NCBI GenBank assembly: GCA_964035575.1
Contig: OZ037846.1
Span: 1,240,001-1,304,000 of the forward strand
Origin: Rhynchopus sp. YZ270_cl-10
Taxonomy: Eukaryota
Reading direction: 5' to 3'
Length of the DNA: 64,000 nucleotides
Made by a program: the position numbers and the translations under genes. Positions 40,094-64,000 of the stretch are shown piece by piece. Below the pieces are notes generated by a model. That model had not been told where the DNA came from, did not search any database, and saw nothing but the letters and a program-made list of their open reading frames with translations. Position 1 is the stretch's first letter. Each line of letters starts with the position of its first letter.

Positions 40094-42379
40094 GGGGAAT
40101 AGTCAGTTATGCCCTACCCTTTTTTTGAAATGGTCAGAGATACCCGAAAATAAGTTCAGATATTGGTCAGAGATACCCCATTTTCAAAAATAGGGCATAA
40201 CTGACCAATATCTGAACTTATTTTCGGGTATTTCGGGTATCTCTGACTATTTCTCAACTTATTTTCGGGCATGTCTGACCATATCGCCAACTTTTTTCGG
40301 GTACCCCAAAAAAGTTGGTTTTCGGGTATACCCAGATACCCAGATACCCAGATACCCAGATACCCAGATACCCAGATACCCAGATACCCAGATACCCAGA
40401 TACCCAGATACCCAGATACCCAGATACCCAGATACCCAGATACCCAGATACCCAGATACCCAGATACCCAGATACCCAGATACCCAGATACCCAGATACC
40501 CAGATACCAGGTCCAGGTCCAGGTACCCAGGAACAGGAAAAAAGTCGTGAAAGAGCAACCACAGCTCCACATGACAAACACAAAAGTGTCCAGTCACGTG
40601 GGGCATTCATGCACTGAGGAGATAATGATCCAACAATTTACAAGAAAGATTACTTAACCTACTGCTGGAAATTGCCAGGTCGTAGTAACACACAAAGTGT
40701 GCCTCCGTTCGGGAAGACCGGATATTCTAGAGACCAAAAAGGCCTCAAGAATATCTTCCGGTAGTCAAGGTATAACCGAATGAACGGCCCAAGACCCCCG
40801 TGGAGAAGTTAAATGTTGTAATGCTATCAGGTAGAAACTGCGAACACTGTCTTACCCTCCTCAATACATGGTGGTTGATGTCTTCCACAACAAATTTCCT
40901 GTACCCAGGTACCCAGGTTCCCAGACCCACGCAGTACCACGTCGCAGTACTACGCAAAATTTACCACCAGACCCTGTCTTCGTGCACCTGAAGTACAACG
41001 CCGCAGACAGGCCAAACATGCGTTGGACTCAGAGGAATGCCCGCTGTGCAGGTATCATGAGAACCAACTCCCAGCAACAAGGGGCGCCTTTTGGCGGGCG
41101 TTGTTGAGGGTGTTTGAGGTGCAAAGTTTTCCACAATTTTGATGCGCGGGTACAGAAGTGTTATCTTGTTCTTTCATCTCTAAGAAATGTAAATGTCAAT
41201 CGCGTTTAACTACCACTAGGGCTTGTTCAGTGAACCCACGAGGGGTCGAAGGGGGTTGGTTATCCCATATCTATCAAAGGTTGTGTCGACCAGGCTAAAC
41301 CACTATGTTACGCTGTACGTTGTTAAATCCGAAGAAATAACACTTTAGCAGCCGCAGGAAGTTTGCTAAAAAGAGTGCCTCACGCTACACAAACCACCAC
41401 CCGCAATTGACTTAGATGTTATAACAAAGAGAATTCAGAACAAAACAACACCCTGCCCCATACACACTAAATTGTCATGCTTCGAGAGCATGCCTGGGCC
41501 AAAATTACTTGACAAAAAAGGCAACAAGACCACCCACAAGGAGTGTGAAATGTGCACTGGTTTTCTGGGGGAACGCAATATTTTCTTGTGCCTCGTCCTC
41601 CGTAAGCAGAGGACAGACTTTCCGGAAGGTTTCCAAAGTCGAATTTCTTGCACTAGCTATGCTCCCTGGGTTAATGGCTATAGCAGTGACTGACAAAGTG
41701 TTCCCACCCCCAGGTCTTCGTCCACAAACAAATCTAGAATAGATTGATTTGGGTGAAGCCTTGGATTTTGAGTTGTTGAATGTCGGAGAGCGGCGCTCAT
41801 CGCAATCACGGATGCAGTTCAGATTTCACGATCCTGTGATGAGTGTAAATGTGGGGTGTGATTAAGTTATGGTATACAAACGCAGTAGTCGGGAAGGGTG
41901 AGGTTAATGAAAAAAGTGGTAATAACTATGTATTTCCGCGAAATAAGGTAGCCTTTTTTCACGCTACAGAGAGTTTCCTGCTGCACTAATGGTTCCCAAG
42001 CGAAGCGAGGGACCATGTATAAGGGTTTGCGGGTTTGCAGGTATTTACCCCCACTAAAAGTAACTGTGTGTGGGGTAGAGGGGTGAAAATCATACCATGC
42101 TGCTTCAATACTGTCTCTGCTGTCGCATTCCCTCATGGTGGGTCACTCACCCACTGGGCAAAAAATCAAAGGGGGTACCCCCAAATAAGTGGGTACCCAA
42201 ATAAGTTCAGAGATACCCGAAAAAAGTTCAGATATACCCGAAAATAAGTTCAAATACCCGAAAATAAGTTCAGATATAGTCAGTTATGCCCTATTTCTGG
42301 TTTTCGGGTATATCTGAACTTATTTTCGGGTATCTCTGACCATTTCAAAAAAAGGGTAGGGTATAACTGACTATTCCCC
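40094..42379 (+). mobile_element. Mutator-like non-autonomous element with shared cargo, nested in piggyBac
   Basis: ~70-bp TIR GGGGAATAGTCAGTTATRCCCTACCCTTTTTTTGAAATGGTCAGAGATACCCGAAAATAAGTTCAGATAT; exact 9-bp TSD TTGATATTT (40085-40093 and 42380-42388). Confidence 0.92.
40331..40506 (+). repeat. (CCCAGATA)22 satellite
   Basis: Direct reading. Confidence 0.95.
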
Positions 42380-47100: not shown

Positions 47101-48179
47101 TCATCGTGATACCGTGCATGGGTTTAGTGGTGCCGTACATGCTGTTCAGTTTGATGCACCGGAGTGTGCCTAAGAGGGCAACATACCATCTGGTGCAGAA
47201 GCGTGCATACCCAATAGAGTTCCTCCTAGGGCCTGGGGAGTGGGTCAACACCGGGAGGCAGTATATGTGGAGCCAGCGGTACATCTGCATGCTGCTGCCG
47301 TACAGGGAGGGGTGTGCGTGGTATTCGTGTCTCCAGCTGTGCGCCTCTTTGGCGCTGTCTGCAATCCAGTCCACGCGCCCTGAGTCGCAGCTTGGGTGTG
47401 CCTACATGAAGAGCGCACAGGGGGCAGTCATCCTTGTTGTGATGCTGCTTGAGATGTTTCTTCGTCCTTCTGCCAGAATGCGCGACACCGTGCTGCTCTC
47501 CATCAGCACCGCCATCCAGGTCGTCGCCATGGTGTTCCACGCGCTGGCACACTCCGAAAGCAATACCCTCGGCTGGCACTACACCTTTGGCACCACCTTG
47601 CTGGTCGGTGCGGGTGCGATTCTGCTGATCAAAATGGCGCTCGACTTTTTAACAGAACTGTACGTCTTTATCACAAGGCGACGTGTCCGAGCACAGAAGG
47701 ATTTCTACAAAAGGCAGTCCCAAAGAGACCAGCTTCCTTCCTTCTACGACTATGAGGCGGATGAGGAGCTGGGTGCTGCGCTCAACACCATACTGTCTGT
47801 TCCCACTTCCACTACGCCGGTAGAGACGCCGAGAGAGAGGCCTCTGTCGACAGAGATCTTCACACCGAAGTCGTCGTCGACGTCGTTGTCGGGGCGTGGC
47901 GGCATTGCCTGGGTGCCTGGGCGCAGTAGTCGAGTGAGGTCGATGTCGTCTGGAAACAACCCTCTTCTCTCGTTGGCATGCGTCGCCAGCTCTATGGACT
48001 CCCTAGGCAGTCAAGTGTACAGCCCAAGCACAGTGAGTGACAGGCGCCGCTCCGGACGCTCGCGTGCAGGCACGAGCCTCACCCCGCGTTATCCAAGTTC
48101 GCCACTAACTGCAGATGTGATGTCAACCACACCAAAACCAAAGCCAACGTCTCCCAACGGCTTGCGGGTTCTATTTTGA
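44127..48179 (+). CDS. Surface protein: signal peptide, LamG-like and possible C-type-lectin-like domains, (PPTPA)n mucin stalk, ~8-TM C-terminal domain
   Basis: 1350-aa ORF; EDISGNANH and LSGGMFDVKYY (LamG-like); Cys pattern ending IDMACGVDYLC; Pro/Thr pentapeptide repeats; the AVVGNL...LRP TM domain recalls DGF-1-like euglenozoan proteins. Confidence 0.88.
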   Translation: MKRTGAIFHVWFSVCVWCVAVLRCDAQIALTARWAASSTVGEDISGNANHMTTGTFTTGYDSYLATDIQAASPSSTSCLSFNDPSMLLSNDPIVTFFYRIEVNDYGKRQTLVSWGTGGDYLRVFVEVLDSATQSLGIETNIGGGDEFKVDMKLSSFNTLGVWNSGLVYAKAGTLHVKSAGFTAWLSIPGAMSSSDTFSFMCAGFPAIANHMMLSGGMFDVKYYTGLAYPCVDGFYNGKCLELKASCATPAVLRPGRSDDVFYSTMDIHVQFLIDLQKVGGQWETAGGEELPAGANVWCGDAAHDLSGGSYYTNAGAGTSAGVRPQAALCAGYEYQEGPGLIDMACGVDYLCTTTLVAAVDDTTATSAPATLPPPTIVPTLAPPTPSPPTPAPATPAPPTPAPPTPAPLTPAPPTPAPPTPSPPTPSPATPAPPTPAPPTPSPPTPAPPTPAPPTPSPPTPAPLTPAPPTPAPLTPSPPTPSPATPAPLTPAPPTPSPLTLAPPTPAPPTPAPPTPAPPTPAPPTPAPPTPAPPTPASPTSSPPTLAPLTNAPLTLSPTTSAPLTAAPPTVVPPTVAPPTSPPLTIAPPTLSPLTPAPLTPAPLTAAPLTAAPPTSAPPTSAPPTVAPLTPPPATLPPATFTPPVLPTAVPDTASPKTFPPGTSAPATGLPLTAQPATLPPATTLAPGTPTPGTLPPASTATQPPQTAPPAQVTLVPETPFPATPLPTAPALPLPPASPTPAGFATATPPGTPAPGGFATPLPTAAQTAAPQTQPTTTAVTTAPDTPTPPDTEAPGMAVGTGAPTALPGGTAGPTPATIVPWVEPEPGVVGAGLEVTQSPISPGTVMLSEYGVVMAVVAIVGAFAGDGAPHPSVRLGLMLSERCEVGSQSTQLSRMMNPTGLVIYDSEAMGAVVGNLSIVLVTTLICLAAVHLAKTLGPRIFPTFFDGLDVQGFLRVPSVPIFVFFVVYQGITLGAMRILIIARSPVHVLVGVIVIPCMGLVVPYMLFSLMHRSVPKRATYHLVQKRAYPIEFLLGPGEWVNTGRQYMWSQRYICMLLPYREGCAWYSCLQLCASLALSAIQSTRPESQLGCAYMKSAQGAVILVVMLLEMFLRPSARMRDTVLLSISTAIQVVAMVFHALAHSESNTLGWHYTFGTTLLVGAGAILLIKMALDFLTELYVFITRRRVRAQKDFYKRQSQRDQLPSFYDYEADEELGAALNTILSVPTSTTPVETPRERPLSTEIFTPKSSSTSLSGRGGIAWVPGRSSRVRSMSSGNNPLLSLACVASSMDSLGSQVYSPSTVSDRRRSGRSRAGTSLTPRYPSSPLTADVMSTTPKPKPTSPNGLRVLF

Positions 48180-49760
48180 TCATGCTTCAGGGGTAGATAG
48201 GCCTTTTTTCGGGGGTTTTCCGTATACAGACACAAACTGGAATACGTGACACCACTCGCTCGCTCGTGAAATCAAAATGCTGAACTCCACTCGCTTCGTT
48301 CGTGAAGTTCGGTGCCAAAAGCCTCCCCTTTATACCAAGAGGAAATAGAATTGACGGAAGGTGCGTGCGTGTAATTATTTTTATTTTATTCAGTATTTGT
48401 TTTTCTCGCCCTTACAACACATTTCAGCGAAAAACGCACCAAATTTGTGGAGTGATTCGCGAAAAAAAAATTTTATTTCTTTGGAAACTTGGTTGTATTA
48501 GTGTAGCCACCCTAGAGGGTGCTACACTGTGCAACAAATTTCTTTGTTTGGTAATGGCACGCCCTAAAAATTGAGTTGCTTTTATGTACTTTGTATGTTG
48601 GGGTTACAAAAAAAATGACATCCCACACGACCCCTTAATACAAGCCTATTCCCGCTTTGCCTAATGTCTTTCCGTATTTGGAAGACCTTTGCTAGGAACT
48701 GGTTTAGTAGTAGGTAGTTCAGTTCAAAGTATACCAAAGAGCTGCTGGACGTTGTCACACCATTGTTTTGTTTTTATTCAGTTCTCATGTACTGAAACAT
48801 CACTTTTTATCACTCCACTTTTTTCTCGTTCAGTGCGCCCCGCATCCCAGGGGGGGCATCTGCATGTTGTCAACTTCACTTTCCTTTTCATTTACAAATC
48901 TGCCACCTTGTGGGATGACCAATTGCGATATCCCTTCTTCTTCCCACCCCCCCAGTGACCCCCCCACCATTGTTTTCTTTTTATTCAGCTGTCCTGAATA
49001 CATCACTTTTAATCTCTCCACTTTTTTCTTTTTCAGTGCGCCCCACATTCCAGGGGGGGAGCATCTGCATGTTGTCAACTTCACTTTCCTTTTCAAGCAG
49101 CACAATATGGCAGATTTACCACCTTCCATATTGTGGGCACCCCATTGCGATATCCCTTGCTTTTTACCCCCCTTTTTGCTGTTGTTGTTGTTGTTACTAG
49201 CCCTGGCGGAACCTGCTGTTCTGTGTGGCCTAGCCAGGTCTTGCGATCCGACTGGTGCCTCTTTTGCTCGGTGAGCGAGAAACAGAACTTAATCTCGGTG
49301 CCTGGGCGGCCCTTTGAGTCACTCTTTTTGCGAAGCTTTAGTGGATTTTGTGGCTTTCCCCATTTTATTGACGTTTATTTTTCCCCTCATCGACCCCATT
49401 TCTGTGTTCAAGAATGCCTCTGGTCAGTGGTGATCCTGCTTGCACCGAGCCGTTGCAAGCACACAAGAGGCCATCACGCTGTTCCTCGTGCACGAGGTCG
49501 TGGCCGATATCCCAACACTCCTGCGAACGATGATGGCAACACCTCTGTCATGCACTTTGCTGCATGAATGTTTTTCAACGGGTTGTCCCGAAGGGGGGGA
49601 AACGTGGTTATTTGTCTCCTGGAAAATATTTTTCCGAAAAGGATATTTTTCGCTATTTTCTCTTTTCTTCTTGCATGAGCTCGACGAGATGCGTTCACGT
49701 TTCAACTCCTCTTTTCTTCCGATTTTTCCTTTTCACTCTCGTTTCCCAAAGATTTTTTTT
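46210..49760 (+). repeat. Tandem segmental duplication (second copy ~52470-55935, continuing at 58126-58470)
   Basis: The coding 3' halves are nearly identical; the downstream non-coding DNA aligns, with indels. Confidence 0.92.
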
Positions 49761-50802
49761 TGTTTGTTTGACCGTTGTGAGACAGGTTGATTGGACCGTG
49801 ATTTTTTTTTCGGGGAAAATTTTTTTCCGGATCCGCTGAAATTTCCACACACAAAAAAAAAAACCCCCCCCCCGATTTAGGATAGTGCCTGACTTTCAAC
49901 TTCTTTCTCTCTCTCGCTCTCTCTTTCTTTCTCTCTCCCTCTTTCCCTCCTATTTTTATTTCACTTTATTTCACTTAGTAAATGCGAAAAATGTTTCATT
50001 CACAAAACTGAAATAAAGCGAAATAAAAAAGCAGGATGGCGAAACCCGAAAGCGAGCTCTCCTCGGTTGCCCATTTTTACAAATTTTGCAAAAATAGAAC
50101 AAGAACAACTCGACTTCTTACTTTTGCACACACACACGCTTTGGGGGCATATTCTACGCCTGAATTACCCCCCATTAGTTAATCCAAGCACACACGCCTT
50201 TGCTATCTCATCTTTAGTGATGAGGTGACTAAGCTAAGCTCATGTTGCTGTATTTTTTTTCTCTCTGCTTTCAAATTTTATTTGAAAGTATATGAATTTG
50301 TTTCTCTCTTTTTTGTTAGACTTAGTTATTGTTTGCTTTGCACCTTTGTTATCTCTTCGTATTACTCTAGTCTTTTGTGTACAATGGACAATGGATGCCG
50401 TCGAAATGGATGATTAACCCTTTAAGGACCGTTCAGGTTTTTTGGATTTTGGGGATCAACTCTCTCCTGGCAGTAAAATACTAAGAGATAATTTTTTTTT
50501 GACCAAATCTGGCGGCATTTGAAAGATTTTGCACAAATCTTTCCAACGTAATAAAAAAAATTGTCATTTATTGTTACAACAAGGCCGCAGCGGGCGTGCA
50601 CAGCTGAACAACACCTTTTGCATTTCCGTAATCCGTCCGCACTGTCTCAAAACCGACCTTACTTTTTACCCCACCGGGGTTTGTTGTGTTGCTGTATATG
50701 CTAAATCGCAAAGAACAGTATTTTTTTTCTATTTTCTCTGTGTTTCCCCCCCCTACCCCACCCCACCCTCTCCAACCCACCACATGACACCACACTGCAG
50801 AA

Positions 50803-53800
50803 ATGCGGTTTGCAGTCTTGTCTGCTTTGATATGCAGTGCTGCAGCTGTGGGACCGCAGCCGTGTGCTGATCCCATCCTGCTCACGTCGTTCACAGACAG
50901 CAGTGAACTTGACTCGACCCGAACTCTGACATTTGCGGGTGGGTTCCGGATGGAGGCGGATGTGACCGTGAATGCAGTGACGTCTTGGGGACGTGTGTTT
51001 GACTTTTCGAATGGACAAGACCAGGACAATGTGCTGCTTGGGCTAGATGGGGGGAAGTGGAACGCCCATGTGTACCACGACACCACAAGGCAGGCTGGGA
51101 TCGCGGACCCCGTAGCCTCGCCGTTGGGTGTCGAGATGTCTATGGTGCTGGTGTACACACGCACGTCAAGCGGGGGCCCTACGACAGGGACGGCTGTGCT
51201 CTACATCGATGGTGTCGAGCGCGTGAGTGGCTACGTAGCTCTTCCCCTCATGGTCACACGCACGATCAACCTCGTGGAGAGAAGTCCCTGGGTCCAAGAT
51301 ACGCCACTCGACGGCACCGTCAAGAACTTCAAGTTCTATGCGTGCGATGCGACAAATGCTCCGGACACTGATGCACCGCCAACTGACGCTCCACCAACTG
51401 ATGCACCAGCTACAGATGCTCCAGCGACAGACGCACCACCTACGGATGCACCTGCAACAGTTGCACCTGACACAAATGCACCACCAACTGATGCTCCAGC
51501 AACTGACGCACCAGACACAAGTGCCCCACCAACTGACGCACCTGACACAGATGCACCATCAACTGACGCACCACCAACTGATGCACCTGCAACAGTCGCA
51601 CCTGACACAGATGCACCACCAACTGACGTACCAGCGACAGATGCTCCAGACACAAATGCACCACCAACTGATGCTCCAGCAACAGACGCTCCAGACACAA
51701 GTGCCCCACCAACTGACGCACCTGACACAAATGCACCACCAACTGATGCTCCAGCAACTGATGCACCAGCTACAGACGCTCCGGACACAGATGCTCCAGC
51801 GACAGACGCACCACCTACGGATGCACCTGCAACAGTTGCACCTGGCACAGATGCACCACCAACTGATGCTCCAGCAACAGACGCTCCAGACACAAGTGCA
51901 CCACCAACTGACGCTCCTGACACAGATGCACCATCAACTGATGCACCAGCGACAGACGCACCGGCAACTGATGCAACTGACGCACCAGCTACAGACGCTC
52001 CGGACACAGATGCTCCAGCGACAGACGCACCACCTACGGATGCACCTGCAACAGTCGCACCTGGCACAGATGCACCACCAACTGATGCTCCAGCAACAGA
52101 CGCTCCAGACACAAGTGCACCACCAACTGACGCTCCTGACACAAATGCACCATCAACTGACGTACCAGCGACAGACGCGCCTGCAACTGACGCACCTGCG
52201 ACAGATGCTCCAGACACAACTGCACCACCAACTGATGCTCCAGCTACAAATGCACCCGACACGATGGCGCCTTTGACACCTGCACCCCTGCCAACAGCGC
52301 CTGTAACGTCAGCTCCAACCACAGTACCCACACCTGCCTCAACAGCGACACAGCCACCACAGACTGCACCACCGGCACAGGTAACACTGGTACCGGAGAC
52401 TCCCTTCCCGGAAACACCCCTCCCGACAGCAGCACCCACCCCTTCAGCAGTCCCTGCACTGACACTGCCGCCTGCCTCAACAGCGACACAGCCACCACAG
52501 ACCGCACCACCGGCACAGGTGACACTGGTACCGGAGACGCCCTTCCCAGCAACACCCCTCCCGACAGCCCCTGCACTGCCACTGCCACCTGCCTCGCCAA
52601 CACCGGCAGGGTTCGCCACAGCTACCCCGCCAGGTACACCTGCACCAGGAGGGTTCGCTACACCACTGCCGACGGCTGCACAGACCGCTGCACCGCAGAC
52701 ACAGCCCACAACCACAGCCGCAACCGCCGCACCAGACACACCGACGCCTCCCGACACAGAAGCACCGGGTATGGCAGTTGGCACCGGAGCACCGACAGCC
52801 TTACCTGGTGGCACGGCAGGACCTGCCACGATTGTGCCTTGGGTGGAGCCGGAGCCGGGTGTTGTTGGTGCAGGCCTTGAGGTGACGCAGTCGCCTATTA
52901 GCCCTGGGACTGTGATGTTATCGGAGTATGGGGTTGTGATGGCGGTTGTCGCGAGTGTGGGGGCGTTCGCTGGGGCACCGCACCCGTCGGTGCGGCTTGG
53001 GTTGATGAGCGAACGGTGTGAGGTGGGCTCGCAGTCGACCCAGCTGTCGCGCTTGATGAACCCTACAGGGCTTGTTATCTACGACAGCGAGGCTATGGGT
53101 GCTGTTGTGGGGAACCTTTCGATTGTCCTGGTCACTACCCTCATCTGCCTTGCCGCCGTGCACCTCGCAAAGACACTGGGCCCTCGCATCTTCCCTACCT
53201 TCTTTGACGGCCTCGACGTGCAAGGCTTTCTCAGAGTGCCCTCCGTGCCGATCTTCGTCTTCTTCGTTGTCTACCAAGGCATCACGCTCGGCGCAATGCG
53301 GATTCTCATCATCGCGAGATCTCCAGTCCACGTCCTCGTCGGCGTCATCGTGATACCGTGCATGGGTTTAGTGGTGCCGTACATGCTGTTCAGTTTGATG
53401 CACCGGAGTGTGCCTAAGAGGGCAACATACCATCTGGTGCAGAAGCGTGCATACCCAATAGAGTTCCTCCTAGGGCCTGGGGAGTGGGTCAACACCGGGA
53501 GGCAGTATATGTGGAGCCAGCGGTACATCTGCATGCTGCTGCCGTACAGGGAGGGGTGTGCGTGGTATTCGTGTCTCCAGCTGTGCGCCTCTTTGGCGCT
53601 GTCTGCAATCCAGTCCACGCGCCCTGAGTCGCAGCTTGGGTGTGCCTACATGAAGAGCGCACAGGGGGCAGTCATCCTTGTTGTGATGCTGCTTGAGATG
53701 TTTCTTCGTCCTTCTGCCAGAATGCGCGACACCGTGCTGCTCTCCATCAGCACCGCCATCCAGGTCGTCGCCATGGTGTTCCACGCGCTGGCACACTCCG

Positions 53801-54423
53801 AAAGCAATACCCTCGGCTGGCACTACACCTTTGGCACCACCTTGCTGGTCGGTGCGGGTGCGATTCTGCTGATCAAAATGGCGCTCGACTTTTTAACAGA
53901 ACTGTACGTCTTTATCACAAGGCGACGTGTCCGAGCACAGAAGGATTTCTACAAAAGGCAGTCCCAAAGAGACCAGCTTCCTTCCTTCTACGACTATGAG
54001 GCGGATGAGGAGCTGGGTGCTGCGCTCAACACCATACTGTCTGTTCCCACTTCCACTACGCCGGTAGAGACGCCGAGAGAGAGGCCTCTGTCGACAGAGA
54101 TCTTCACACCGAAGTCGTCGTCGACGTCGTTGTCGGGGCGTGGCGGCATTGCCTGGGTGCCTGGGCGCAGTAGTCGAGTGAGGTCGATGTCGTCTGGAAA
54201 CAACCCTCTTCTCTCGTTGGCATGCGTCGCCAGCTCTATGGACTCCCTAGGCAGTCAAGTGTACAGCCCAAGCACAGTGAGTGACAGGCGCCGCTCCGGA
54301 CGCTCACGTGCAGGCACGAGCCTCACCCCGCGTTATCCAAGTTCGCCGCTAACTGCAGATGTGATGTCAGCCACATCAAAAACAAAGCCAACCTCTCTCA
54401 GTGGCTTGCGGGTTCTATCTTGA
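50803..54423 (+). CDS. Surface protein: signal peptide, LamG/ConA-like domain, (TDAPx)n mucin stalk, ~8-TM C-terminal domain
   Basis: 1206-aa ORF; WGRVFDFSNG..DNVLLG, LYIDGVE, RSPW..D..LDGTVKNFKFY (Laminin_G_3 pattern); C-terminus almost identical to 44127. Confidence 0.9.
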   Translation: MRFAVLSALICSAAAVGPQPCADPILLTSFTDSSELDSTRTLTFAGGFRMEADVTVNAVTSWGRVFDFSNGQDQDNVLLGLDGGKWNAHVYHDTTRQAGIADPVASPLGVEMSMVLVYTRTSSGGPTTGTAVLYIDGVERVSGYVALPLMVTRTINLVERSPWVQDTPLDGTVKNFKFYACDATNAPDTDAPPTDAPPTDAPATDAPATDAPPTDAPATVAPDTNAPPTDAPATDAPDTSAPPTDAPDTDAPSTDAPPTDAPATVAPDTDAPPTDVPATDAPDTNAPPTDAPATDAPDTSAPPTDAPDTNAPPTDAPATDAPATDAPDTDAPATDAPPTDAPATVAPGTDAPPTDAPATDAPDTSAPPTDAPDTDAPSTDAPATDAPATDATDAPATDAPDTDAPATDAPPTDAPATVAPGTDAPPTDAPATDAPDTSAPPTDAPDTNAPSTDVPATDAPATDAPATDAPDTTAPPTDAPATNAPDTMAPLTPAPLPTAPVTSAPTTVPTPASTATQPPQTAPPAQVTLVPETPFPETPLPTAAPTPSAVPALTLPPASTATQPPQTAPPAQVTLVPETPFPATPLPTAPALPLPPASPTPAGFATATPPGTPAPGGFATPLPTAAQTAAPQTQPTTTAATAAPDTPTPPDTEAPGMAVGTGAPTALPGGTAGPATIVPWVEPEPGVVGAGLEVTQSPISPGTVMLSEYGVVMAVVASVGAFAGAPHPSVRLGLMSERCEVGSQSTQLSRLMNPTGLVIYDSEAMGAVVGNLSIVLVTTLICLAAVHLAKTLGPRIFPTFFDGLDVQGFLRVPSVPIFVFFVVYQGITLGAMRILIIARSPVHVLVGVIVIPCMGLVVPYMLFSLMHRSVPKRATYHLVQKRAYPIEFLLGPGEWVNTGRQYMWSQRYICMLLPYREGCAWYSCLQLCASLALSAIQSTRPESQLGCAYMKSAQGAVILVVMLLEMFLRPSARMRDTVLLSISTAIQVVAMVFHALAHSESNTLGWHYTFGTTLLVGAGAILLIKMALDFLTELYVFITRRRVRAQKDFYKRQSQRDQLPSFYDYEADEELGAALNTILSVPTSTTPVETPRERPLSTEIFTPKSSSTSLSGRGGIAWVPGRSSRVRSMSSGNNPLLSLACVASSMDSLGSQVYSPSTVSDRRRSGRSRAGTSLTPRYPSSPLTADVMSATSKTKPTSLSGLRVLS

Positions 54424-56179
54424 TCATGCTTCAGGGGTAGATAGGCCTTTTTTTCGGGGGTTTTCTGTATACAGACACAAACTGGAATACGTGATCCCGC
54501 TCGCTCGTGAAGTCAAAATGCTGAACTCCACTCGCTTCGTTCGTGAAGTTTGGTGCCAAAAGGGGGAAATACTCTGCCCTCCCCCTTTAAAGAGTCCCCC
54601 CTTTTTTAATACCCAGCAAGAGATAATAGAATTGACGGAAGGTGCGTGCGTGTATTTGTTTTTATTTTATTCAGTATTTGTTTTTCTCGCCCTCACAACA
54701 CATTTCAGCGAAAAACGCACCGAATTTGTGGAGTGATTCGCGAAAAAGCTTTTTTTTTTCTTTGAAAACTTAGTTGTATTAGTGTAGCCACCGTAGTCTA
54801 GGCTAGAGTGTGCTTCACTATACAAAAAATTTCTTTGTTTGGTATGGCTTGGTCTGGCACGCCCCAAAAATTAAGTCGCTTTTATGTACTTCGTATGTAC
54901 TTCAAAGTATACCAAAGAGCTGCTGGACGTTGTCACACCATTGTTCTCTTTTTATTCAGTTCTCATGTACTGAAACATCACTTTTTATCACTCCACTTTT
55001 TTCTCGTTCAGTGCGCCCCGCATCCCAGTGGGCATCTGCATGTTGTCAACTTCACTTTCCTTTTTATTTACAAATCTGCCATATTGTGGGAGCCAATTGC
55101 GATATCCCTTTCTTTTTCTTTCCACCCACCATTGTTTTCTTTTTATTCAGTTCTCATGTACTGAAACATCACTTTTTATCACTCCACTTTTTTCTCTTTC
55201 AGTGCGCCCCGCACCAGGGGGGGGGGTGTATGCATGTTGTCAACTTTACTTTCCGTTTCATTTAGCAGCACAATATGGCAGATTTACAATCTTCCATACT
55301 ATTATTGTGGGCACCCATTGCGATATCCCTTGCTTCTTCCCATCCCCCTTGTTGTTGTTGTTGTTGTTGTTGTTTAGCCCTGGCGGAACCTGCTGTTTTG
55401 TGTGCACTGGCCGGGTCTTGCGATCCGACTGGTGCCTTTTTTTGCTCGGTGAGCGAGAAACAGAACTTAATCTTGGTGCCTGGGCGGCCCTTTGAGTCAC
55501 CCTTTTTGCGAAGCTTTAGTGGATTTTGTGGCTTTCCCCATTTTATTGACGTTTATTTTTCCCCTCATCGACCCCATTTCTGTGTTCAAGAATGCCTCTG
55601 GTCAGTGGTGATCCTGCTTGCACCGAGCCGTTGCAAGCACACAAGAGGTCATCACGCTGTTCCTCGTGCACGAGGTCGTGGCCGATATCCCAACACTCCT
55701 GCGAACGATGATGGCAACACCTCTGTCATGCACTTTGCTGCATGAATGTTTCAAGGGTTGTCCCGAAGGGGGGAAACGTGGTTATTTGTCTCCTGGAAAA
55801 TACTTTTCCGAAAAGGATATTTTTCGCTATTTTCTCTTTTCTTCTTGCATGAGCTCGACGAGATGCGTTCACGTTTCAACTCCTCTTTTCTTCCTATTTT
55901 TCTTTTCACCCTCGTTTCCCGAAGATTTTTTCTTGTATAGGCTTAGGCGTCGTGCGACGAGCCTTCTCATTCACTTTTTGATGTCTTTTTTATTTTCTAT
56001 TTTTACCAAGAATAAAAAATCAACCCCTAAACACCCCTCCCCCTTGTACCGTGTTCATCTATTTTTATTTTACTTTTTCTTACCACATGGTATGGTTTCC
56101 TTTTTGCTTTTTACTTTTGCCACTTTTTGTTGCAACTCTTTTCTGTTCATTTTTTAAAAAAAAAATTTTTCAACGCTTT

Positions 56180-57748
56180 CAGGGCTCTCAAGATCCTCCA
56201 CGAAAAAAGCAGAATTTTCGAAATGAGGAGGATTCATTTTTGCAAAAAAACCCCCCAAAAAAAAAATTTTCCCCCCGCAACAAGCGGTCGTCGCGCGCTT
56301 CGCGCGCGCCTCCCTGACAGCCACAGAGCGGAGAGGCGGGTCAATTTTGCGAGATAACAAAAAACGGAAATCTAATCCTTTCTCTTGCACCGTACGCTCC
56401 ACGAACCGTACAAAACCCATACGTCTTCCAGAAGCAGGGGCTGATGCAACGGCAGGTAATTTTTAAAAATGGCAAAAATTTTGCAGCTTTGGTCACGTTG
56501 CATTTTTTGGCTGCAAAATGCAAGGGTATCCAAAGACATTGACAACTCTATTTTTTTGCGGAGCAAAAAAATAATATAAATGGCGCCGCAGGCGAAAAAA
56601 AATTGGGGTACGGTGTAAAAATGCTTCCTTTTACACCACAGAATCACTCAACGAACCCTTTTTTTGAGTAGCAAAAAATGAAAATGGCGCCGCAGGCAAA
56701 TTTTTTTTAAGGTGCAGCCCTGGACGGTGCATACAGGCTCGGGAAAATATTGGCTCCCTCGGGGGAGACAAAGTGACCCCCCACTATAAAACCCCTAGGA
56801 GGATAATCCTCCACCAGCCCGCCAAAAAAAAAAAAAAAAAAAAATGGAGGAAATCCTCCACCAAAAAAGCCTGGAAAAAAAAAAAAAAAACAAGTAATTG
56901 CTATCGGAAAAAAAAACGGGGTGTGATGTGGAACTCCATCCTGTAGAAATAATCTACAACACGCCCAGCATTCTGCTCTTCTGCAGGTGTGCTAACGCTC
57001 TTCGTAAGCTGCCAGACCCACTGGGACGCCAGCATCTGAAACGTTCAAGAAGGGGGGCTGTCCTCTTCGTCCAGCACCATCTGCTTGATAGCGTTGTTGG
57101 ACGTCGGCTCGGCAGGCTCGGCGTGTTCCAGCTCGTTTTTGTCCACAGGCTCCCCACATTGTCGTCGTCGTTGGAGCAGTGCGGAAGGAACACAGAATGC
57201 ACAGACTACAACACATCGATCACACCAGGCACATCAGCACCTCCAGCAAATCGCCAGGATGCTACAGTGGTTTCGAAAATCGCGCGGAGTTTTCCACATC
57301 ACACCCGTTTTTCCTTAGCAATTACTTGTCCTTGTTGTTACTGTTGTTTTCAACCACCTTCCTTCAACCCTTGTAGGGATCAGTTGTAATTTTTTTTCGC
57401 GAAAACATGAAATTATACATTTCAAGAGAACAAATTAAAAAGGTTCCTTATTTGCATTTTTGGGCTCCGCCCGTGCAGTGGTGGGGTCAATCTCGAAAAT
57501 TGGACAATTTTTTGACCACTTAATTTTGAGAAATATGAGCCCGGTTGCTTATACGTGGGGCCCATTTTCAGCTAAAATTTTCCTCAAAATCTGGTTTTGT
57601 AAAATTGACCCTTTCCCCCCCCCACATCGATTTCAATACTATACCTTACTTCACCTACGGTTGCCCTTACAGGGGGGGTGAAGGAAGGTAAGTTGAAAAG
57701 CCCCTGGAGGAAATATCCTCCCCTACGTGGAGGATCTTGAGAGCACTG
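56180..57748. mobile_element. hAT non-autonomous element
   Basis: 23-bp TIR CAGKGCTCTCAAGATCCTCCACG; exact 8-bp TSD AACGCTTT (56172-56179 and 57749-57756); subterminal GGAGGA..ATCCTCC palindromes. Confidence 0.92.
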
Positions 57749-57814
57749 AACGCTTTCTTTTCTTTTCTGATCTTTTCTTTTCTATTTTATTTTACTTTTC
57801 ACTTTTTCGGAGAG

Positions 57815-57890
57815 GAACCCTTGCTCCTACTGATGAGATGCTGCCGGGGGTTCAGAGAATGTAGTATAGGAGCAGGCAGCTCGAAACCAC
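57815..57890 (+). ncRNA. Candidate hammerhead ribozyme with non-circularly permuted topology
   Basis: CUGAUGA (57830-57836), GAAA (57883-57886), GUA site (57864-57866). Stem I is 8 bp and perfect, stem II is 8 bp with one bulge, stem III has 4 of 5 bp. Confidence 0.6.
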
Positions 57891-58818
57891 CTTTGCTTTT
57901 ACTTTTACAGTTTTTAGTCAGCCCATTGCCCGCTACTGTAGCGAGGGTCTATGCTACACAACAGGGAAAGGTGTACTGGCTGTACCCTACTTTTTTATTT
58001 TACTTGCAAAAGAACAAAAACAAACCAAAAAAGATTCTTTTTAAATTTACAAAAAAAAGAGGAGACGAAGCTGGTGGATAAAACTCCATCTTTCGATTGA
58101 AAATTATATCTTAATCTTTTTGTATGTTTGTTTGACCGTTGTGAGACACTGACAGGTTGATTGGACCGCGATTTTGGACCGGGAAATTTTTTTTCTGGAT
58201 CCGCTGAAGTTTCCACACAAAAAAAAAATCCCGATTTAGGATAGTGCCTGACTTTCAACTTCTTTCTCTCTCGCTCTCTCTTTCTTTCTCTCCTTTTTCC
58301 CTCCTATTTTTATTTCGTTTTTATTTCACTTAGTAAATGCGAAAAAAATTTCATCCACAAAACTGAAATGAAGCGAAATAAAAAAGCTGGATGGCGAAAC
58401 CCGAAAGCGAGCTCTCCTCGGTTGCCCATTTTACAATTTTTTCAAAAAATGAAAAAGAACAACTCGACTTCTTTTGAAAATTCTGAAAACCCACTTTTTT
58501 TCCAGGGGAAAATTTTTCCGGAAATTTTCCAGACTGAGGAAACAGCCTGGCGTACCGTTTATCTATTGCTACGTGCCCTTTTGTTGTTATTGCGTACCAC
58601 TTGCTTGGGCAAGGTTGGTTGAGGACGTTACGGGGAAATCTCACCACACCACCTTCATCAGTATTTTTTGTGTTGTGTTTCCCCAGTCTCGCCCTCATAA
58701 AACCTCGCTGCCATATTTTTCGGCGCTCCAAAAAAAGACCCCCCCCATATTTTATCCTAAAAACCTAAAACACCCCACACACAACACCCAACACCGTAGG
58801 CACCCTTTCAACACAACA

Positions 58819-60072
58819 ATGCGTTTGTTCACGCTCGCTACGCTCTGCGCCTACGTGGGCGCACTCGATGTACGGATCACAGACGTGGGCGCTGTCGGGG
58901 ACAACGCGACACTCTGCACCACAGCACTGCTGCAGGCCCTGCACACGGTCTCTGCTGCAGGCGGGGGCAATGTGATCGTACCTTACCTTAACCAAAAACC
59001 GGACACATACGTCATCGGAGCAGTCAACCTCACGAGCAACATCAACCTCGTCATCGAACACGGCGCAACACTACGCGGAGCTGCCGACAAGGCTCTCTTC
59101 CCCATCGTTGCGCCACTCCCCTCTTACGGCATCTCCCGCGACACAGCCGGTCCAGACTACGCACGCCATCAAGCGCTTCTCTGGGCACTCAACACCACCA
59201 ACACCACCATCTCCGGAACCGGCACCATCGACGGCAGCGGGCTTTATTGGTGGACCCTCCGCAAAGAAAAGACCCTCGACGCAGGCCGCCCACACCTCAT
59301 TGAGTTTCAATGGTCAAGCAAAATTGAGGTGCGCGATGTGTTTCTCAGGAACTCCCCGTTTTGGACCGTCCATTTGGTGTATAGCGAGGACATCTGGGTG
59401 CATCACGTTAATATCTATGCGCCGGCTGATGTGGTTAACACGGATGGGGTTGATCCAGATTCGTCGAGGAATGTGTTGATTGAATATTGTACGATAGACT
59501 GTGGTGACGACCAGGTTGCGGTGAAGAGCGGAATGGATGCAGCAGGGCTGGCGTATGGAATGCCCTCAGAGAACATTACCATTCAGCACAACACCTTTCT
59601 GCACGGAGATGGGATCAGCTTTGGCTCAGAATGCTCTGGGGGTATATCGGACATATTTGTCTACAACAACACACTCAATAAACAAACCGGAACGGTGTCT
59701 GACGGACTTTACATTAAAACCTCAAAGTCCCGAGGCGGCTACATCAAGAACATCCACTTCAAAGACAACACCTTACAGCATGTGGCTCGGGTGATCAATA
59801 TTCGGACCTCGTATGATGGCCATTCGGGGAACACAACGTTGACAGCGATCCAGAATATTACATATGAGGCCACGACGGCGCGGTTTGTGGGGCAGACGGC
59901 GTTGTTGGATTGCTTTGCTGAGGCGCCCTGTACGGACATCACGTTCCAAGGAATTGATATCGCAAACTTCTCCACCTCCTGGGAAGCGCAGAATGTCCAA
60001 ACCTACAGTGTCTCAGGTGACGTTGTCCCCAGTGGGTTGGAAACTGTCCTGAAGGATTCGATGAAGCGTTGA
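58819..60072 (+). CDS. Secreted glycoside hydrolase family 28 (polygalacturonase/pectinase)
   Basis: Signal peptide MRLFTLATLCAYVGA; DVGAVGD, GTGTIDGSG..WW, NSPFWTVH, NTDGVDPDSS, CGDDQVAVKSG, GISFGSE.SGG, YIKT...RGG. Confidence 0.95.
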   Translation: MRLFTLATLCAYVGALDVRITDVGAVGDNATLCTTALLQALHTVSAAGGGNVIVPYLNQKPDTYVIGAVNLTSNINLVIEHGATLRGAADKALFPIVAPLPSYGISRDTAGPDYARHQALLWALNTTNTTISGTGTIDGSGLYWWTLRKEKTLDAGRPHLIEFQWSSKIEVRDVFLRNSPFWTVHLVYSEDIWVHHVNIYAPADVVNTDGVDPDSSRNVLIEYCTIDCGDDQVAVKSGMDAAGLAYGMPSENITIQHNTFLHGDGISFGSECSGGISDIFVYNNTLNKQTGTVSDGLYIKTSKSRGGYIKNIHFKDNTLQHVARVINIRTSYDGHSGNTTLTAIQNITYEATTARFVGQTALLDCFAEAPCTDITFQGIDIANFSTSWEAQNVQTYSVSGDVVPSGLETVLKDSMKR

Positions 60073-61467
60073 AAAAAAAAATACAGCGAGATTTAGAGAA
60101 AACAGTAACGTTTTGATTTTGCTTTTTCTTTGAGGGTTTTTTTTGGGGGTTCCTCAACTGGATGGGATGTTTCATTGAAGTGCTATCTGAGGGGGGTTCG
60201 ATAACCCCCGTGGAGAAGCAGTGCTCTGCGTCCTGCTGATGAAAACGGTGAGGCGTTCTGCACAATTTTTTTTTCAACGTCTCTTTTATCCAACTACCCG
60301 TTCATTTTACGAACCGCTAGACTGGGGAGATCTCTCCCTTTGAATACCTGACATCACTGAGCTGCGTTTCAGTACGTTGCGACTCTTTTTTTACCTTGAA
60401 AAGGTTCCCTCCTATTTTTTTTGTGTGCAATGTGACTCATCATTCTGTGAACCCGAAACCTTTTCCCCCCCTTTTAGATGTATGTAAGACACATTTTTAT
60501 ATTCTACAAGACAATGCCTGCGTTCTAGTGCATCACCTTCCCCATTTATGTGTTCAGCCCTTCAGACCCCCCTCCGGAAGGAAAACTCATAAAATGTGTG
60601 GTGATTCTTGATGACAAAGTCATCTCTACTTGCTGTACAAAGAACGTTGGGTGCAGACCCTGGTTACCTGTGAGGTGGTTTTATTTTTAAACTTAGTATC
60701 GTATTCTGCTCGAAACCAAATTAACATTGTGTTGTTACGGCATTGACGTTGCCACCTCAACTTTTGAGAATTTGATTGCAGATGTGTGTGCAGAAGCATA
60801 GTCATCTCTCAACTTTTCTTTAATTTTACATGTCTGCATACCCTACATGCCTCCGTTGGCTGCATCGCATCAATCTCAGACGATGCTATCGTAAAGTGAC
60901 GGGCACGTCTTGCACAGAGTACCGTCCCACTGGGAATTGCAGCTGCACAGACAGGATGTCTGCAACCGAGCTTTTGTTGGGAAGATTTTTTTTTCTCAAA
61001 AAGAGGCAAAACAAAACAAAAGGTTAGTTTGGTGCCTGTGTCCAGAGACGTTTGCACCGACCAACCTTTTATTGTTTAGGTTGTTCGTTTGTTTCTTTTC
61101 TTTTCTTTATTGGTGCTAGTCCTGTTCTCTTTTGCTTTGCCGAGGACACCTCTTGGCCTATTGGGACTACCCGTTTTGTTTGTTTGTTTCTTTTTTCTTT
61201 TTTTTTTTTTGTGGTGATCTCCAAGCCTATCATACGTCACACAGGAACCATGACCCTGCATCGCCAAGGATCCTTTCATTCATCCGACGTGAGAGGAAAG
61301 CGGGAGCGGAGCATATTTGATGGGTCCCTCAAAAAATGGATGTGGCATGCATGGGTTGGGTTGTGTCTACCCACACGGTACACCGGGCATTTTTGTACCA
61401 AGGTTGACATTAGTGTCGCTGTGCCTGTATCCAGAATGGGTTTGCACTATATCACTTCCCCCTACCC

Positions 61468-61600
61468 TAATGGTGGCAATATTGTGATGGGAGCCCATTG
61501 GAATACGCAAAATACATCAAAATACATCATGTGGATTGTGATGTATTTTGATGTATTTTGCGTATTCCAATGGGAGCCCATCACAACACTGCCACCATTA
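61468..61600. mobile_element. Palindromic MITE (~60-bp arms, TA ends)
   Basis: TAATGGTGGCA..TTGTGATGGG..CCCATTGGAATACGCAAAATACATCAAAATACATCA, a 9-nt loop, then the reverse complement. Confidence 0.8.
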
Positions 61601-62003
61601 CACCACCCCCCCAACTCACCAACGTAAACGAATTTTCAACATTTCTCCTTTCAAACAGAACCAACTCTTTCGTCTTCTAGACCATCACTCCTCCTCCCCC
61701 TCCTCCCCTTCCCCCAACCCAATCCATTCCTTCAGGTTATTATTACCAACACAAAAATCCTCTCTCTCTCTTTTTCCTCATCTGCTATTTGCCGGATTTT
61801 TTGTGCTTTCATCCAGGGCTACAGAGTGGTCAAGAGGTGCCTTAATATATCAATTACTTTCTGTTTCAAATTGACTGTCCACAAAAAGGCCATCCGACAC
61901 TACTCCGGTCAGCGCTGAAGTGACGGTGAATACCTAGTAAAAAAAGGGGTTTTTGAGCGCTTCTCTGTACACCTCTCATCGCGGTGCTCAAACCGAAAAC
62001 AAT

Positions 62004-63236
62004 ATGGACCTGGCGATCCATTGTTTTGATGGAAGAATCGGCAGTGTTGAGGTAGATGAGGATGATTCCCCGATGGAGCTGCGCGCAAAGATTGCGTTTT
62101 CGCTGGATCTCCGTGAGGACAGCTTTCACATAAACAGCGCTGATGGCGACAACGAGAACATCAACGTCAGACACCTGAGCGCAGGAGACGCCTTGACACT
62201 CAAGGAGACAGCGAAATACGTTGCAGTCTCCGCGCTTCATGCTAGAGGGCAGACCGATCTGACATCAGAGCTTTTGTCAACAGTGCGCGATCCTGCTGTT
62301 GCTTCCTTTCTCTTGCAGGCAGAGGTTTCAACGATAATACCAAACAAATTTCTGGCAAAATCTCCATCATTGCAGATTCTGGATTTAAGCGAAGCGGTAG
62401 GAGTGACTATCATTGAGGCAGATTTTTTGGCAGATTGCTCCGGGTTAAGGTCAATCAATCTGTCAGGTCTGTCTTCCGTTGTTTCGATTGGAAGCGGCTT
62501 TATGGAAAACTGCACTTCAATAAAAAAAATTGATTTGGTACCGTTCCGCTCCCTCGAGTCGATTGGAGACAGCTTTCTTCATGGGTGTACCGCGTTAATG
62601 GAGGTGGGCCTTTCAGATCTGAATGTATCGCATATAGGCCATAATTTTCTCTCAGATTGCACAGCGTTGGAAATGGTTAACCTCTCTGGACTCCGCAGGG
62701 TTGCTTTATTGAAACACAATTTTTTGTCAAATTGCTCTTCTCTCAAGGCGGTGGATCTTTCCGCGTTAAATGAGGTGAGACGGATATGGTATGGATGTCT
62801 CTGTGACTGCAGCGCGTTAGAATCGGTCGATCTATCCGGGTTTGCGAATGTCACGCAAATTGGCGGGAGGTTTCTCGCAGAGTGTAGGTCCCTAAAACAC
62901 ATCAATCTTTCTGCGTTGCGCAACGTCTCGCAAATCGAAGGGAATTTTTTGCGAAACTGCAAGATTTCTAATGTCGTTCTAACCCCTCTGAAGAACGTCA
63001 GCCACGTTGGACACAATTTTATGGAGAATTGCGAGGTTAGGGACATCTCAGAATGTAACGATGTTATTGCGCGGAGTGTACAAAGGGGGAGAAAGAGTGT
63101 TCTTATACGACAGGGTTGCGAGATGACAACACATAAAACCTCTGCATCCGAGCCAGCGCACGATGTGTCCAGGTCCATGTGGTCCCAGGTTCTCGAGGAT
63201 GCCATGTTGTGGGTGGAGCAGCTTTGCCAAGAATGA
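62004..63236 (+). CDS. Ubiquitin-like N-terminal domain + BspA-like leucine-rich repeat protein
   Basis: ~24-aa repeats L..IDLS.L..V..IG..FL..C; N-terminus MDLAIHCFDG...VEVDEDDSPMELRAKI; first ATG at 62004. Confidence 0.88.
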   Translation: MDLAIHCFDGRIGSVEVDEDDSPMELRAKIAFSLDLREDSFHINSADGDNENINVRHLSAGDALTLKETAKYVAVSALHARGQTDLTSELLSTVRDPAVASFLLQAEVSTIIPNKFLAKSPSLQILDLSEAVGVTIIEADFLADCSGLRSINLSGLSSVVSIGSGFMENCTSIKKIDLVPFRSLESIGDSFLHGCTALMEVGLSDLNVSHIGHNFLSDCTALEMVNLSGLRRVALLKHNFLSNCSSLKAVDLSALNEVRRIWYGCLCDCSALESVDLSGFANVTQIGGRFLAECRSLKHINLSALRNVSQIEGNFLRNCKISNVVLTPLKNVSHVGHNFMENCEVRDISECNDVIARSVQRGRKSVLIRQGCEMTTHKTSASEPAHDVSRSMWSQVLEDAMLWVEQLCQE

Positions 63237-63535
63237 AGACGTAGTGTGCGTGGAAGAGTAGTGGGAAGGGCAGTGGGGGTGTGTTTGCAGCCTCCCGGTG
63301 TTGTTTTGTTGTTAAGGGGGGGGTAAAATGGAAGGGAAAAAATGTCACAAAAAAGTGTTTCTGAGATAAAAATGACCCCAAGAAGAGGGGGATCGCGCTT
63401 GGAAATACAACAGGGTTATGGTTTTGGGGATGGAAACGATCCTTTTTTGCTATTATTGTTTGAACATCTCTTGGTCTGTGACTTTTGGATGTCCGGTGAA
63501 GGCATTTCGATCAGGTTTTAATTTCTTTATTTCTT

Positions 63536-64000
63536 GGGAAAAGTCACTTAGTGCCCAAGTTTGTTGTACCCATTTAGGATAATACCCAGTGGGTATTATC
63601 CTAAATTATTTGGGTATTATCCTAAATTATTTTGGGTATTATGGGTACTGGGTACTGGGTACTGGGTACTGGGTACTGGGTACTGGGTACTGGGTACTGG
63701 GTACTGGGTACTGGGTACTGGGTACTGGGTACTGGGTACTGGGTACTGGGTACTGGGTACTGGGTACTGGGTACTGGGTACTGGGTACTGGGTACTGGGT
63801 ACTGGGTACTGGGTACTGGGTACTGGGTACTGGGTACTGGGTACTGGGTACTGGGTACTGGGTACTGGGTACTGGGTACTGGGTACTGGGTACTGGGTAC
63901 TGGGTACTGGGTACTGGGTACTGGGTACTGGGTACTGGGTACTGGGTACTGGGTACTGGGTACTGGGTACTGGGTACTGGGTACTGGGTACTGGGTACTG
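63536..64000 (+). mobile_element. Left end of a Mutator-like element related to 29284, running out of the window
   Basis: GGGAAAAGTCAC terminus and ACCCATTTAGGATAATACCCAGTGGGTATTATCCTAAA subrepeats resemble the TIR at 29284/31251. Confidence 0.7.
63643..64000 (+). repeat. (GGGTACT)n satellite, at least 51 units
   Basis: Direct reading; truncated by the window end. Confidence 0.97.

What the first reader, a model, noticed from the sequence alone, without database searches (positions are those of the whole stretch)
57815..57890. Candidate hammerhead ribozyme with a non-circular (pseudoknotted) permutation
Seen: UGCUCCUA(57822-29)-CUGAUGA-GAUGCUGCC(57837-45)...GUAGU-A(57861-66)-UAGGAGCA(57867-74)-GGCAGCUC(57875-82)-GAAA-CCAC. 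Stem I is a perfect 8 bp in exact register after a GUA triplet. Stem II keeps the conserved G10.1-C11.1 closing pair. Stem III (ACCAC/GUAGU) is one transition from perfect. An extra helix GAACCC(57815-20)/GGGUUC(57848-53) is possible. Established: hammerhead types I-III are circular permutations of segments A(I'-CUGANGA-II), B(II'-GAAA-III), C(III'-UH-I). Here the order is A-C-B, which standard descriptors miss. I recall rare non-circular permutations being reported, so novelty needs checking. Inference: the zero-length I-to-II' junction is plausible because the distal ends of stems I and II are adjacent in the hammerhead fold. Predicted cleavage is 3' of A57866.
Basis: partly seen in the sequence, partly recalled or inferred. 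Interest (0 to 1): 0.9.

Follow-up and report, generated by a model that had tools for sequence, protein, structure and literature searches.

The report
Scrambled hammerhead ribozyme in protist repeat
A repeated DNA element in what is likely a marine protist (diplonemid) genome carries a predicted self-cutting RNA whose three parts come in a rare scrambled order, so far published from only two soil-DNA sequences, which makes this a likely first example inside a eukaryote's mobile repeat; cutting has not been tested.

Summary
The motif is present as described (57815-57890, + strand). Its block order is the type-CSG non-circular hammerhead permutation of Eckert et al. 2023 (PMC10085705), published from two unique soil-metagenome sequences, both shown to cleave. 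A match this good arises in 1-4 of 2500 shuffled windows, so the family evidence matters more. Six of seven laid sequencing runs hold several copies. Changes cluster in linkers, and one joining-helix pair switches G-C to A-U. Decayed copies exist too. The ribozyme lies in a 2.2-kb insertion (about 600 nt without a nested DNA transposon) with a probable 6-bp target duplication, absent from a paralogous site in the window. Named homologues of the upstream gene are diplonemid. Best reading: a real type-CSG ribozyme family that processes the RNA of a non-coding mobile repeat; this copy is probably weakened. The topology is known; the host and setting look new. Cleavage, expression and element class are untested.

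The parts
57815..57821 (+). [quoted passage not shown]
   Evidence: (-9.6); one family variant reads A at 57815 with T at 57853 (tables 3 and 7)
57822..57829 (+). stem I, 5' strand
   Evidence: 8 WC pairs with 57867-74
57830..57836 (+). catalytic core CUGAUGA (C3-A9)
   Evidence: only listed change in copies is at the free N7 position 57834 in one depth-2 contig; replaced in one decayed copy
57837..57845 (+). stem II, 5' strand (G10.1 = 57837; U57839 bulged)
57847..57853 (+). 3' strand of the joining helix P
57854..57860 (+). variable linker between P and stem III
   Evidence: most differences between copies fall here
57861..57866 (+). stem III 5' strand, U16.1 (57865) and residue 17 (A57866); predicted cut between 57866 and 57867
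   Evidence: G at 57863 in nearly all other copies; cut site inferred by analogy with PMC10085705
57867..57874 (+). stem I, 3' strand
57875..57882 (+). stem II, 3' strand, joined to stem I with no linker (C11.1 = 57882)
57883..57890 (+). GAAA (G12-A15.1) and stem III 3' strand
57915..57990 (+). GC-richer downstream module found with the ribozyme; 57940-57958 can pair with the ribozyme arms (possible off-fold)
   Evidence: similar depth to the ribozyme; helices; no fold z-score support
58060..58119 (+). 3' terminal tail shared with a far more abundant repeat; element end near 58116-58121
   Evidence: depth about 100-fold higher and unlike flanks behind 58116-58121
55939..58119 (+). insertion that carries the ribozyme (about 600 nt once the nested element is set aside)
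   Evidence: absent from the paralogous site near 49759
55933..55938 (+). probable target-site duplication TTGTAT, left copy
58120..58125 (+). probable target-site duplication TTGTAT, right copy
56180..57748 (.). nested non-autonomous DNA transposon with 23-bp terminal inverted repeats and an 8-bp duplication (56172-79, 57749-56); hAT-like by recalled rule
49740..49780 (+). paralogous empty site in the other copy of a segmental duplication
50803..54423 (+). upstream host gene; named homologues of its C-terminal part are diplonemid
58819..60072 (+). downstream host gene, glycoside hydrolase family 28

Best explanation
This is a likely functional type-CSG (non-circularly permuted) hammerhead ribozyme family, carried by a multicopy non-coding insertion in a probably diplonemid genome and predicted to cut its own RNA after position 57866, so that it would process the transcript of that mobile repeat. 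Shown: full hammerhead core, four interlaced helices in the published CSG arrangement, several copies, an insertion with an empty paralogous site. Inferred fold: stems I and II are tied at both ends, by the catalytic junction (I/II/III) and by a tight distal three-way junction (I/II/P, linkers of 0-2 nt) that replaces the usual loop-loop contact. Inferred chemistry, from established hammerhead knowledge: G12/G8 acid-base cleavage giving a 2',3'-cyclic phosphate and a 5'-OH. Inferred biology: the element lies on the same strand as the flanking genes, so it would be read through within the host's multi-gene transcript, and cleavage would free the element RNA for copying by a reverse transcriptase supplied in trans. 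Intact copies keep both halves of the ribozyme, which needs an uncut, multimeric or circularised template. The window's own copy has a rare A at 57863 that breaks stem III and is probably a weakened copy (or carries an assembly error).
For: Same block order and four helices as CSG-1/CSG-2, which cleave. G at 57863 in depth 2096/2096 (X1), 7539/7539 (X2), 2996/3483 (X4), 14/14 (X6), 2514/2669 (X3) and 23/23 (X12); stem III goes from +0.9 to -5.2 kcal/mol. The most abundant variant differs from the window at only 57860 and 57863 over 57809-57890, in X2, X3 and X12 (table 8). With all unlisted differences counted against the structure, three variants still change 6, 5 and 5 of 9 linker positions against 4 of 56, 5 of 66 and 3 of 64 others (p 0.0002, 0.0014, 0.0004; two of the three are close kin). 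One two-sided change, G57815-C57853 to A-U, in X3 and X12. In X12 the ribozyme is nearly unchanged while its downstream flank is unlike the window's (table 7). Empty site, probable target duplication and a sharp 3' end.
Against: No cleavage or expression data. Only one compensatory change could be read; the tool appears to omit differences within about 30 nt of a piece's ends, leaving 1-4 changes per variant unplaced, which could break stems or core. 2 of 5 ribozyme-spanning contigs in X2 (17% of depth) are decayed. Copies may be alike through recent spread, not selection, and the window's source sample may be among the runs. In nested folding of 57810-57960 the downstream segment 57940-58 wins and stems I-III have probability 0 (the model cannot form pseudoknots). 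Published CSG rates are slow, 0.004 and 0.026 per min. One of 57 prokaryotic pattern hits (L129) reached 18 pairs inside a reading frame, so such matches do arise by chance. The element class is not identified and no reverse transcriptase was found among 31 ORFs scanned.
Confidence: 0.75

Rival explanations
1. The ribozyme family is real, but acts on host RNA: it cuts the multi-gene precursor between genes or in untranslated regions, perhaps beside a spliced-leader acceptor, and its spread as a repeat is secondary.
For: Same strand as both neighbouring genes; pyrimidine tracts ending in AG just before (57757-57814) and just after (57891-57910) the motif; D. papillatum genes are likely co-transcribed in groups (PMC10161547); engineered hammerheads knock down mRNAs in T. 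cruzi (PMC11874021).
Against: The paralogous gene unit lacks it; decayed copies are tolerated and other copies have other downstream flanks; the cut lies about 950 nt before the next start codon and 3.4 kb after the previous stop.
Confidence: 0.1
2. A chance descriptor match in an ordinary repeat, multiplied with the repeat and never active.
For: 1-4 of 2500 shuffled windows reach this score; L129 shows a chance match in a coding region; only one compensatory change read.
Against: The family majority completes stem III exactly as predicted beforehand; divergence is concentrated in the linkers; the fourth helix, which the published descriptor ignores, has the published placement.
Confidence: 0.08
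3. A once-active ribozyme of a now mostly dead element: the fold is ancestral, but present copies are held off by the downstream complementary segment or are decaying.
For: Decayed variants in X2, X3, X12; off-fold dominates nested predictions for the window copy; the window's element is interrupted by a nested transposon.
Against: The deepest variants (83% of X2 depth) show no listed core change; with majority letters one off-helix drops from -11.3 to -5.3 kcal/mol while stem III strengthens. The off pairing is only marginally above chance (28 of 1000 shuffles, post hoc).
Confidence: 0.07

Closest known systems
Type-CSG hammerhead ribozymes CSG-1 and CSG-2 (Eckert, Friedrich, Weinberg, Weinberg 2023, PMC10085705)
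   Same: Block order C-S-G; CUGAUGAG and CGAAA cores; four helices in the same order, with the joining helix formed by the 5' flank and the strand after stem II; 5-bp stem III of similar sequence; found as DNA.
   Different: Stems I, II and P share no evident sequence with CSG-1/2 (compared by eye), so probably an independent origin. 76 nt against 66. Stems I and II are 8 bp against 5-6. Stem I-to-II linker 0 nt against 5; P-to-III linker 7 nt against 2; bulge in stem II; A17 against C17. It falls outside the published RNAMotif descriptor (stem II broken after one pair; 15 nt between stems II and III, limit 10). Multicopy in a eukaryotic genome, where the paper found CSG only in soil metagenomes and in no known organism.
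Type-SGC (HRIMA-1) and type-GCS hammerheads (same paper)
   Same: Non-circular permutation with a pseudoknotted core; short covalent link between stems I and II.
   Different: Different block order; SGC occurs almost only in metatranscriptomes, proposed to be circular RNA replicons.
Non-LTR retrozymes and Penelope-like element hammerheads (passages of PMC7761336, PMC8557442)
   Same: Non-coding mobile repeat carrying a hammerhead; self-complementary RNA that could hold the ribozyme off; many decayed copies.
   Different: Those use type I (or type III in plants) circular permutations, typically in tandem or terminal repeats; here a single CSG motif, no tandem copy in the window, no ORF, no helper element found.
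HDV-like ribozyme in the 77-nt 5' signature of trypanosomatid ingi/L1Tc elements (passage of PMC12278014)
   Same: Self-cleaving RNA in a euglenozoan mobile element, in a genome transcribed in multi-gene units.
   Different: Different ribozyme class; it sits at the element's 5' end, whereas this motif is internal, about 250 nt from the 3' end.

Membership tests
Type-CSG hammerhead | All conserved core residues (CUGAnGA, G10.1-C11.1, GAAA, U16.1, H17) | tested here: met
Type-CSG hammerhead | 5'-to-3' block order C, S, G | tested here: met
   57830, 57865, 57883; definition
Type-CSG hammerhead | Stems I, II and III in register with the core | tested here: met
   8, 8 and 4 of 5 pairs in this copy; 5 of 5 in stem III of the family majority
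Type-CSG hammerhead | [quoted passage not shown] | tested here: met
   57815-21 with 57847-53; same placement as
Type-CSG hammerhead | Covariation in the helices | tested here: inconclusive
   one two-sided change and one restoring change; full copy sequences not obtainable
Type-CSG hammerhead | Site-specific self-cleavage 3' of H17 | not testable with these tools
   needs in vitro assay
Hammerhead types I-III (circular permutations) | Block order CGS, GSC or SCG with a nested three-way junction | tested here: not met
   order is CSG; no Rfam match
Retrozymes | Hammerheads in tandem or terminal direct repeats | tested here: not met
   single motif in 64 kb, no direct repeat of it; other loci of the genome not available
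Retrozymes | No protein-coding capacity; dispersed insertion | tested here: met
   no Pfam hit in the ORFs scanned around and in the insertion; empty site and probable duplication
Retrozymes | Accumulation of circular RNA | not testable with these tools
   no run on record as RNA; only contigs available
Penelope-like elements | Reverse transcriptase (with or without GIY-YIG) ORF and pseudo-LTR | tested here: not met
   0 of 31 ORFs scanned hit such a family; a non-autonomous derivative is not excluded

The most novel reading that the evidence does not exclude
The first non-circularly permuted hammerhead working as the processing module of a eukaryotic mobile element: a diplonemid retrozyme-like repeat of about 600 nt that is cut out of the host's multi-gene transcript by a caged CSG ribozyme, is copied through a circular or multimeric RNA using a tail borrowed from an abundant retroelement, and is switched off by a built-in complementary segment 50 nt downstream.
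Probability: 0.3. Interest if true: 0.75.

Novelty: new member of a known kind. Interest (0 to 1): 0.57.

Why it matters
Eckert et al. called the evidence for biological relevance of type CSG weaker, as it rested on two similar sequences of unknown host. An independent, multicopy family in a eukaryotic genome, with different stems and natural intact and decayed variants, would settle that CSG is used in nature and give it a context. It escapes Rfam and the published descriptor, so ribozymes in protist repeats are likely undercounted. Its long stems and zero-length junction make it a good candidate for a structure of this topology, and for testing whether scrambled hammerheads are inherently slow.

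Tried and rejected
Rfam scan of 52000-64000: no ribozyme family. No whole genome is held, so copies could not be read in full. Pattern scans for CSG-like motifs: 29 viral, 98 metagenome and 57 prokaryotic loci; 0, 0 and 1 had three uninterrupted stems of 4 or more pairs. The published CSG-1/2 fit the pattern but were not returned, so that blank is weak. The one hit, L129, lies within a reading frame and a looser pattern gave 3 matches against 4 for the control in its genome; rejected as chance. Family-specific patterns found nothing in viral contigs. Run X7 had nothing laid. No RNA holder listed; X12 is only guessed to be RNA, so nothing is claimed on expression. The linker-versus-stem test was discarded because unlisted end-proximal differences bias it; one search replaces it. 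The region search returned no hit and the protein atlas did not answer; host group came. The downstream module was compared by eye with recalled HDV-like, twister and pistol layouts and fits none; no fold support (z -0.2 to -0.3). No convincing head-to-tail repeat between the 5' and 3' parts of the insertion (plus-strand score 42 against a shuffle maximum of 53; the minus-strand score 45 against 39 comes from T-rich low-complexity sequence). A weak SGC-order match on the minus strand at 36202 lacks a real stem II. Look-ups of earlier findings by sequence and place were empty.

Full report
Observation. In order: P 5' (57815-21), stem I 5' (57822-29), CUGAUGA (57830-36), stem II 5' (57837-45), P 3' (57847-53), a 7-nt linker, stem III 5' with U16.1 (57861-65), A17 (57866), stem I 3' (57867-74), stem II 3' (57875-82), GAAA and stem III 3' (57883-90). 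Every conserved hammerhead residue is present (numbering and core consensus from my own knowledge and PMC10085705). P, I and II are stable; stem III has one mismatch in this copy. All helices cross except P and III, so nested folding misses the structure and Rfam has no match. My descriptor finds only this site in the window; 4 of 2500 shuffled windows reach 20 pairs in three stems and 1 reaches 27 pairs in four helices (one search gave 0 of 400 above 17). Over a scan of very many windows that alone would not be enough.

What it matches. Eckert et al. 2023 (PMC10085705; I read parts 1-6 of 8 of the main text, through the Discussion, and all 28 supplement places with 'CSG'; figures are not held) divide the hammerhead into blocks C, G and S. 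The order here is CSG. They found two unique CSG sequences, only in metagenomic DNA (soil in the supplement row), and none in genomes of known organisms. Both cleaved at the predicted site, at 0.004 and 0.026 per min. The present motif differs in every stem sequence except a similar stem III, is 10 nt longer, has no linker between the 3' strands of stems I and II, and falls outside their RNAMotif descriptor (stem II interrupted after one pair; 15 nt where 10 are allowed).

Family evidence. The stretch occurs in public runs. I laid 7 of the 20 listed runs; 6 held the motif (studies P1, P2, P3, P8), and the window's source may be among them. At 57863 the reads show G in all depth of X1, X2, X6 and X12, 86% of X4 and 94% of X3, which makes stem III five perfect pairs (+0.9 to -5.2 kcal/mol). 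In X2 five contigs cover the middle of the motif. The deepest (4042 of 7539) differs from the window only at 57860 and 57863. Two more (1914, 282) differ mainly in the linkers. Two (614, 685) are decayed: one has a 3-nt deletion in stem I and G at U16.1, the other a replaced core. In the second-deepest type, C57853 reads T and the letter before 57816 reads A (X3, X12), turning a G-C pair of P into A-U. The tool appears to list only differences about 30 nt or more from a piece's ends, so I discarded my first test and counted all unlisted differences against the structure; linkers still carry most changes. One to four changes per variant stay unplaced. Depth against contigs with unique flanks suggests tens of copies, a rough figure since depth is no copy number.

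Setting. The C-terminal part of the upstream gene has 404 homologues. Of 10 top hits looked up (3 of the first 13 skipped), 3 carry names, two Diplonema japonicum and one Rhynchopus euleeides, at 34-36% identity; 7 are unnamed. The host is therefore probably a diplonemid. A segmental duplication in the window gives an empty site: 48723-50119 aligns with 54901-55936 and 58117-58473. The extra 55939-58119 is flanked by TTGTAT on both sides. Inside it, 56180-57748 has 23-bp terminal inverted repeats and an 8-bp duplication (hAT-like by recalled rule). Setting that aside leaves about 600 nt: an AT-rich 5' part, the ribozyme, a GC-richer module (57915-57990) and a tail. The tail (58060-58119) has about 100 times the depth and ends in unlike flanks at 58116-58121, as if shared with an abundant repeat. 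The 5' boundary is less sure; one other copy has the same short 5' motif just upstream of its pyrimidine tract. None of 31 ORFs scanned, of 69 listed at 120 aa or more, hit a transposon family.

How it likely works. Shown: core, four helices, copies, insertion. Inferred: helices I and II are clamped at both ends, by the catalytic junction and by a tight I/II/P junction that stands in for the usual loop contact; stem I can extend two pairs into stem II, so that junction may slide. Cleavage after A57866 would leave a 253-nt downstream RNA ending in the tail. The motif is on the strand of the flanking genes, and D. papillatum genes are likely co-transcribed in groups (PMC10161547, passages), so read-through would supply the RNA. 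Since intact copies keep both halves, the copied template must be uncut, multimeric or circular, as in retrozymes (PMC7761336, passages). Segment 57940-58 can pair with block S and with either stem III 3' or the 5' arm; it dominates nested folds of this copy. The effect is marginal against shuffles (28 of 1000, post hoc) and weaker with majority letters, so the off-switch is a hypothesis.

Against. No cleavage or RNA data; one compensatory change only; decayed copies; possible likeness by recent spread; slow published rates; a chance-level match of 18 pairs in a bacterial reading frame (L129). Collection scans found no relatives, but also missed the published examples.

Novelty. Searches for 'non-circular permutations' + hammerhead, 'type-CSG', 'non-circularly permuted' since 2023, diplonemid + hammerhead, diplonemids + ribozyme + self-cleaving, and Euglenozoa + hammerhead + retrotransposon listed no report of CSG in a eukaryote or of a diplonemid nuclear hammerhead; I judged most from listings. 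'Ribozyme' does not occur in the main text of PMC10161547; its supplements were not searched and could bear on this. PMC13725137 only cites Eckert (passages); PMC8557442, PMC12278014 and PMC11874021 were seen as passages. The library lacks most subscription papers. Unchecked AI notes from this scan report permuted hammerheads in animal retroelements and one other CSG case; they are leads only. Verdict: a new member of a known but very rare kind, in what appears to be a new host group and setting. Family is a real ribozyme: about 0.85. This copy active as it stands: about 0.5. Role in element RNA processing as stated: 0.75 overall. Interest 0.57.

Noticed in passing
window 57915-57990: Module found with the ribozyme. 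One X6 contig (depth 4) reads C at 57926 with G at 57951, and G at 57927 with C at 57950, changes that keep or restore pairs in a helix 57924-28/57949-53. No Rfam match, no fold z-score support.
   Followed up: partly
window 58060-58119: A 60-nt tail with about 100 times the depth of the ribozyme and a sharp 3' end; likely the end of an abundant unidentified repeat. Single copy in the window.
   Followed up: partly
window 56180-57748: Non-autonomous element with terminal inverted repeats and an 8-bp duplication, itself holding repeats shared with 2365-3361 and 28910-29250.
   Followed up: partly
window 57860, 57863, 57895: The three letters by which this copy departs from the family majority all improve pairing with 57940-57958; could be template-switch correction, selection for silence, or chance.
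   Followed up: partly
window 56059-56118: Resembles the two pyrimidine flanks of the ribozyme with only 22 nt between them; those read on the minus strand like a GAAA plus stem III hairpin without a CUGAnGA. May be a relic or chance.
   Followed up: no
window 61468-61600: Long near-perfect inverted repeat (sub-threshold miRNA-family hits only), probably a miniature inverted-repeat element; similar hairpins at 7015-7294, 14502-14565, 14813-14907, 40127-40285, 42207-42345.
   Followed up: no
window 44127-48179 and 50803-54423: Tandem paralogous genes with different N-terminal domains, long Thr-Pro-Ala or Thr-Asp-Ala-Pro repeats and a shared hydrophobic C-terminal region without a Pfam match; 404 homologues, the named ones diplonemid.
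   Followed up: partly
window 58819-60072: GH28 polygalacturonase with a 72% paralogue and otherwise only distant (42% or less) relatives; fits the reported carbohydrate-enzyme expansion of diplonemids.
   Followed up: no
L129:151-212: CSG-like match (5/5/8 pairs) inside the start of a probable bacterial gene; judged chance.
   Followed up: yes
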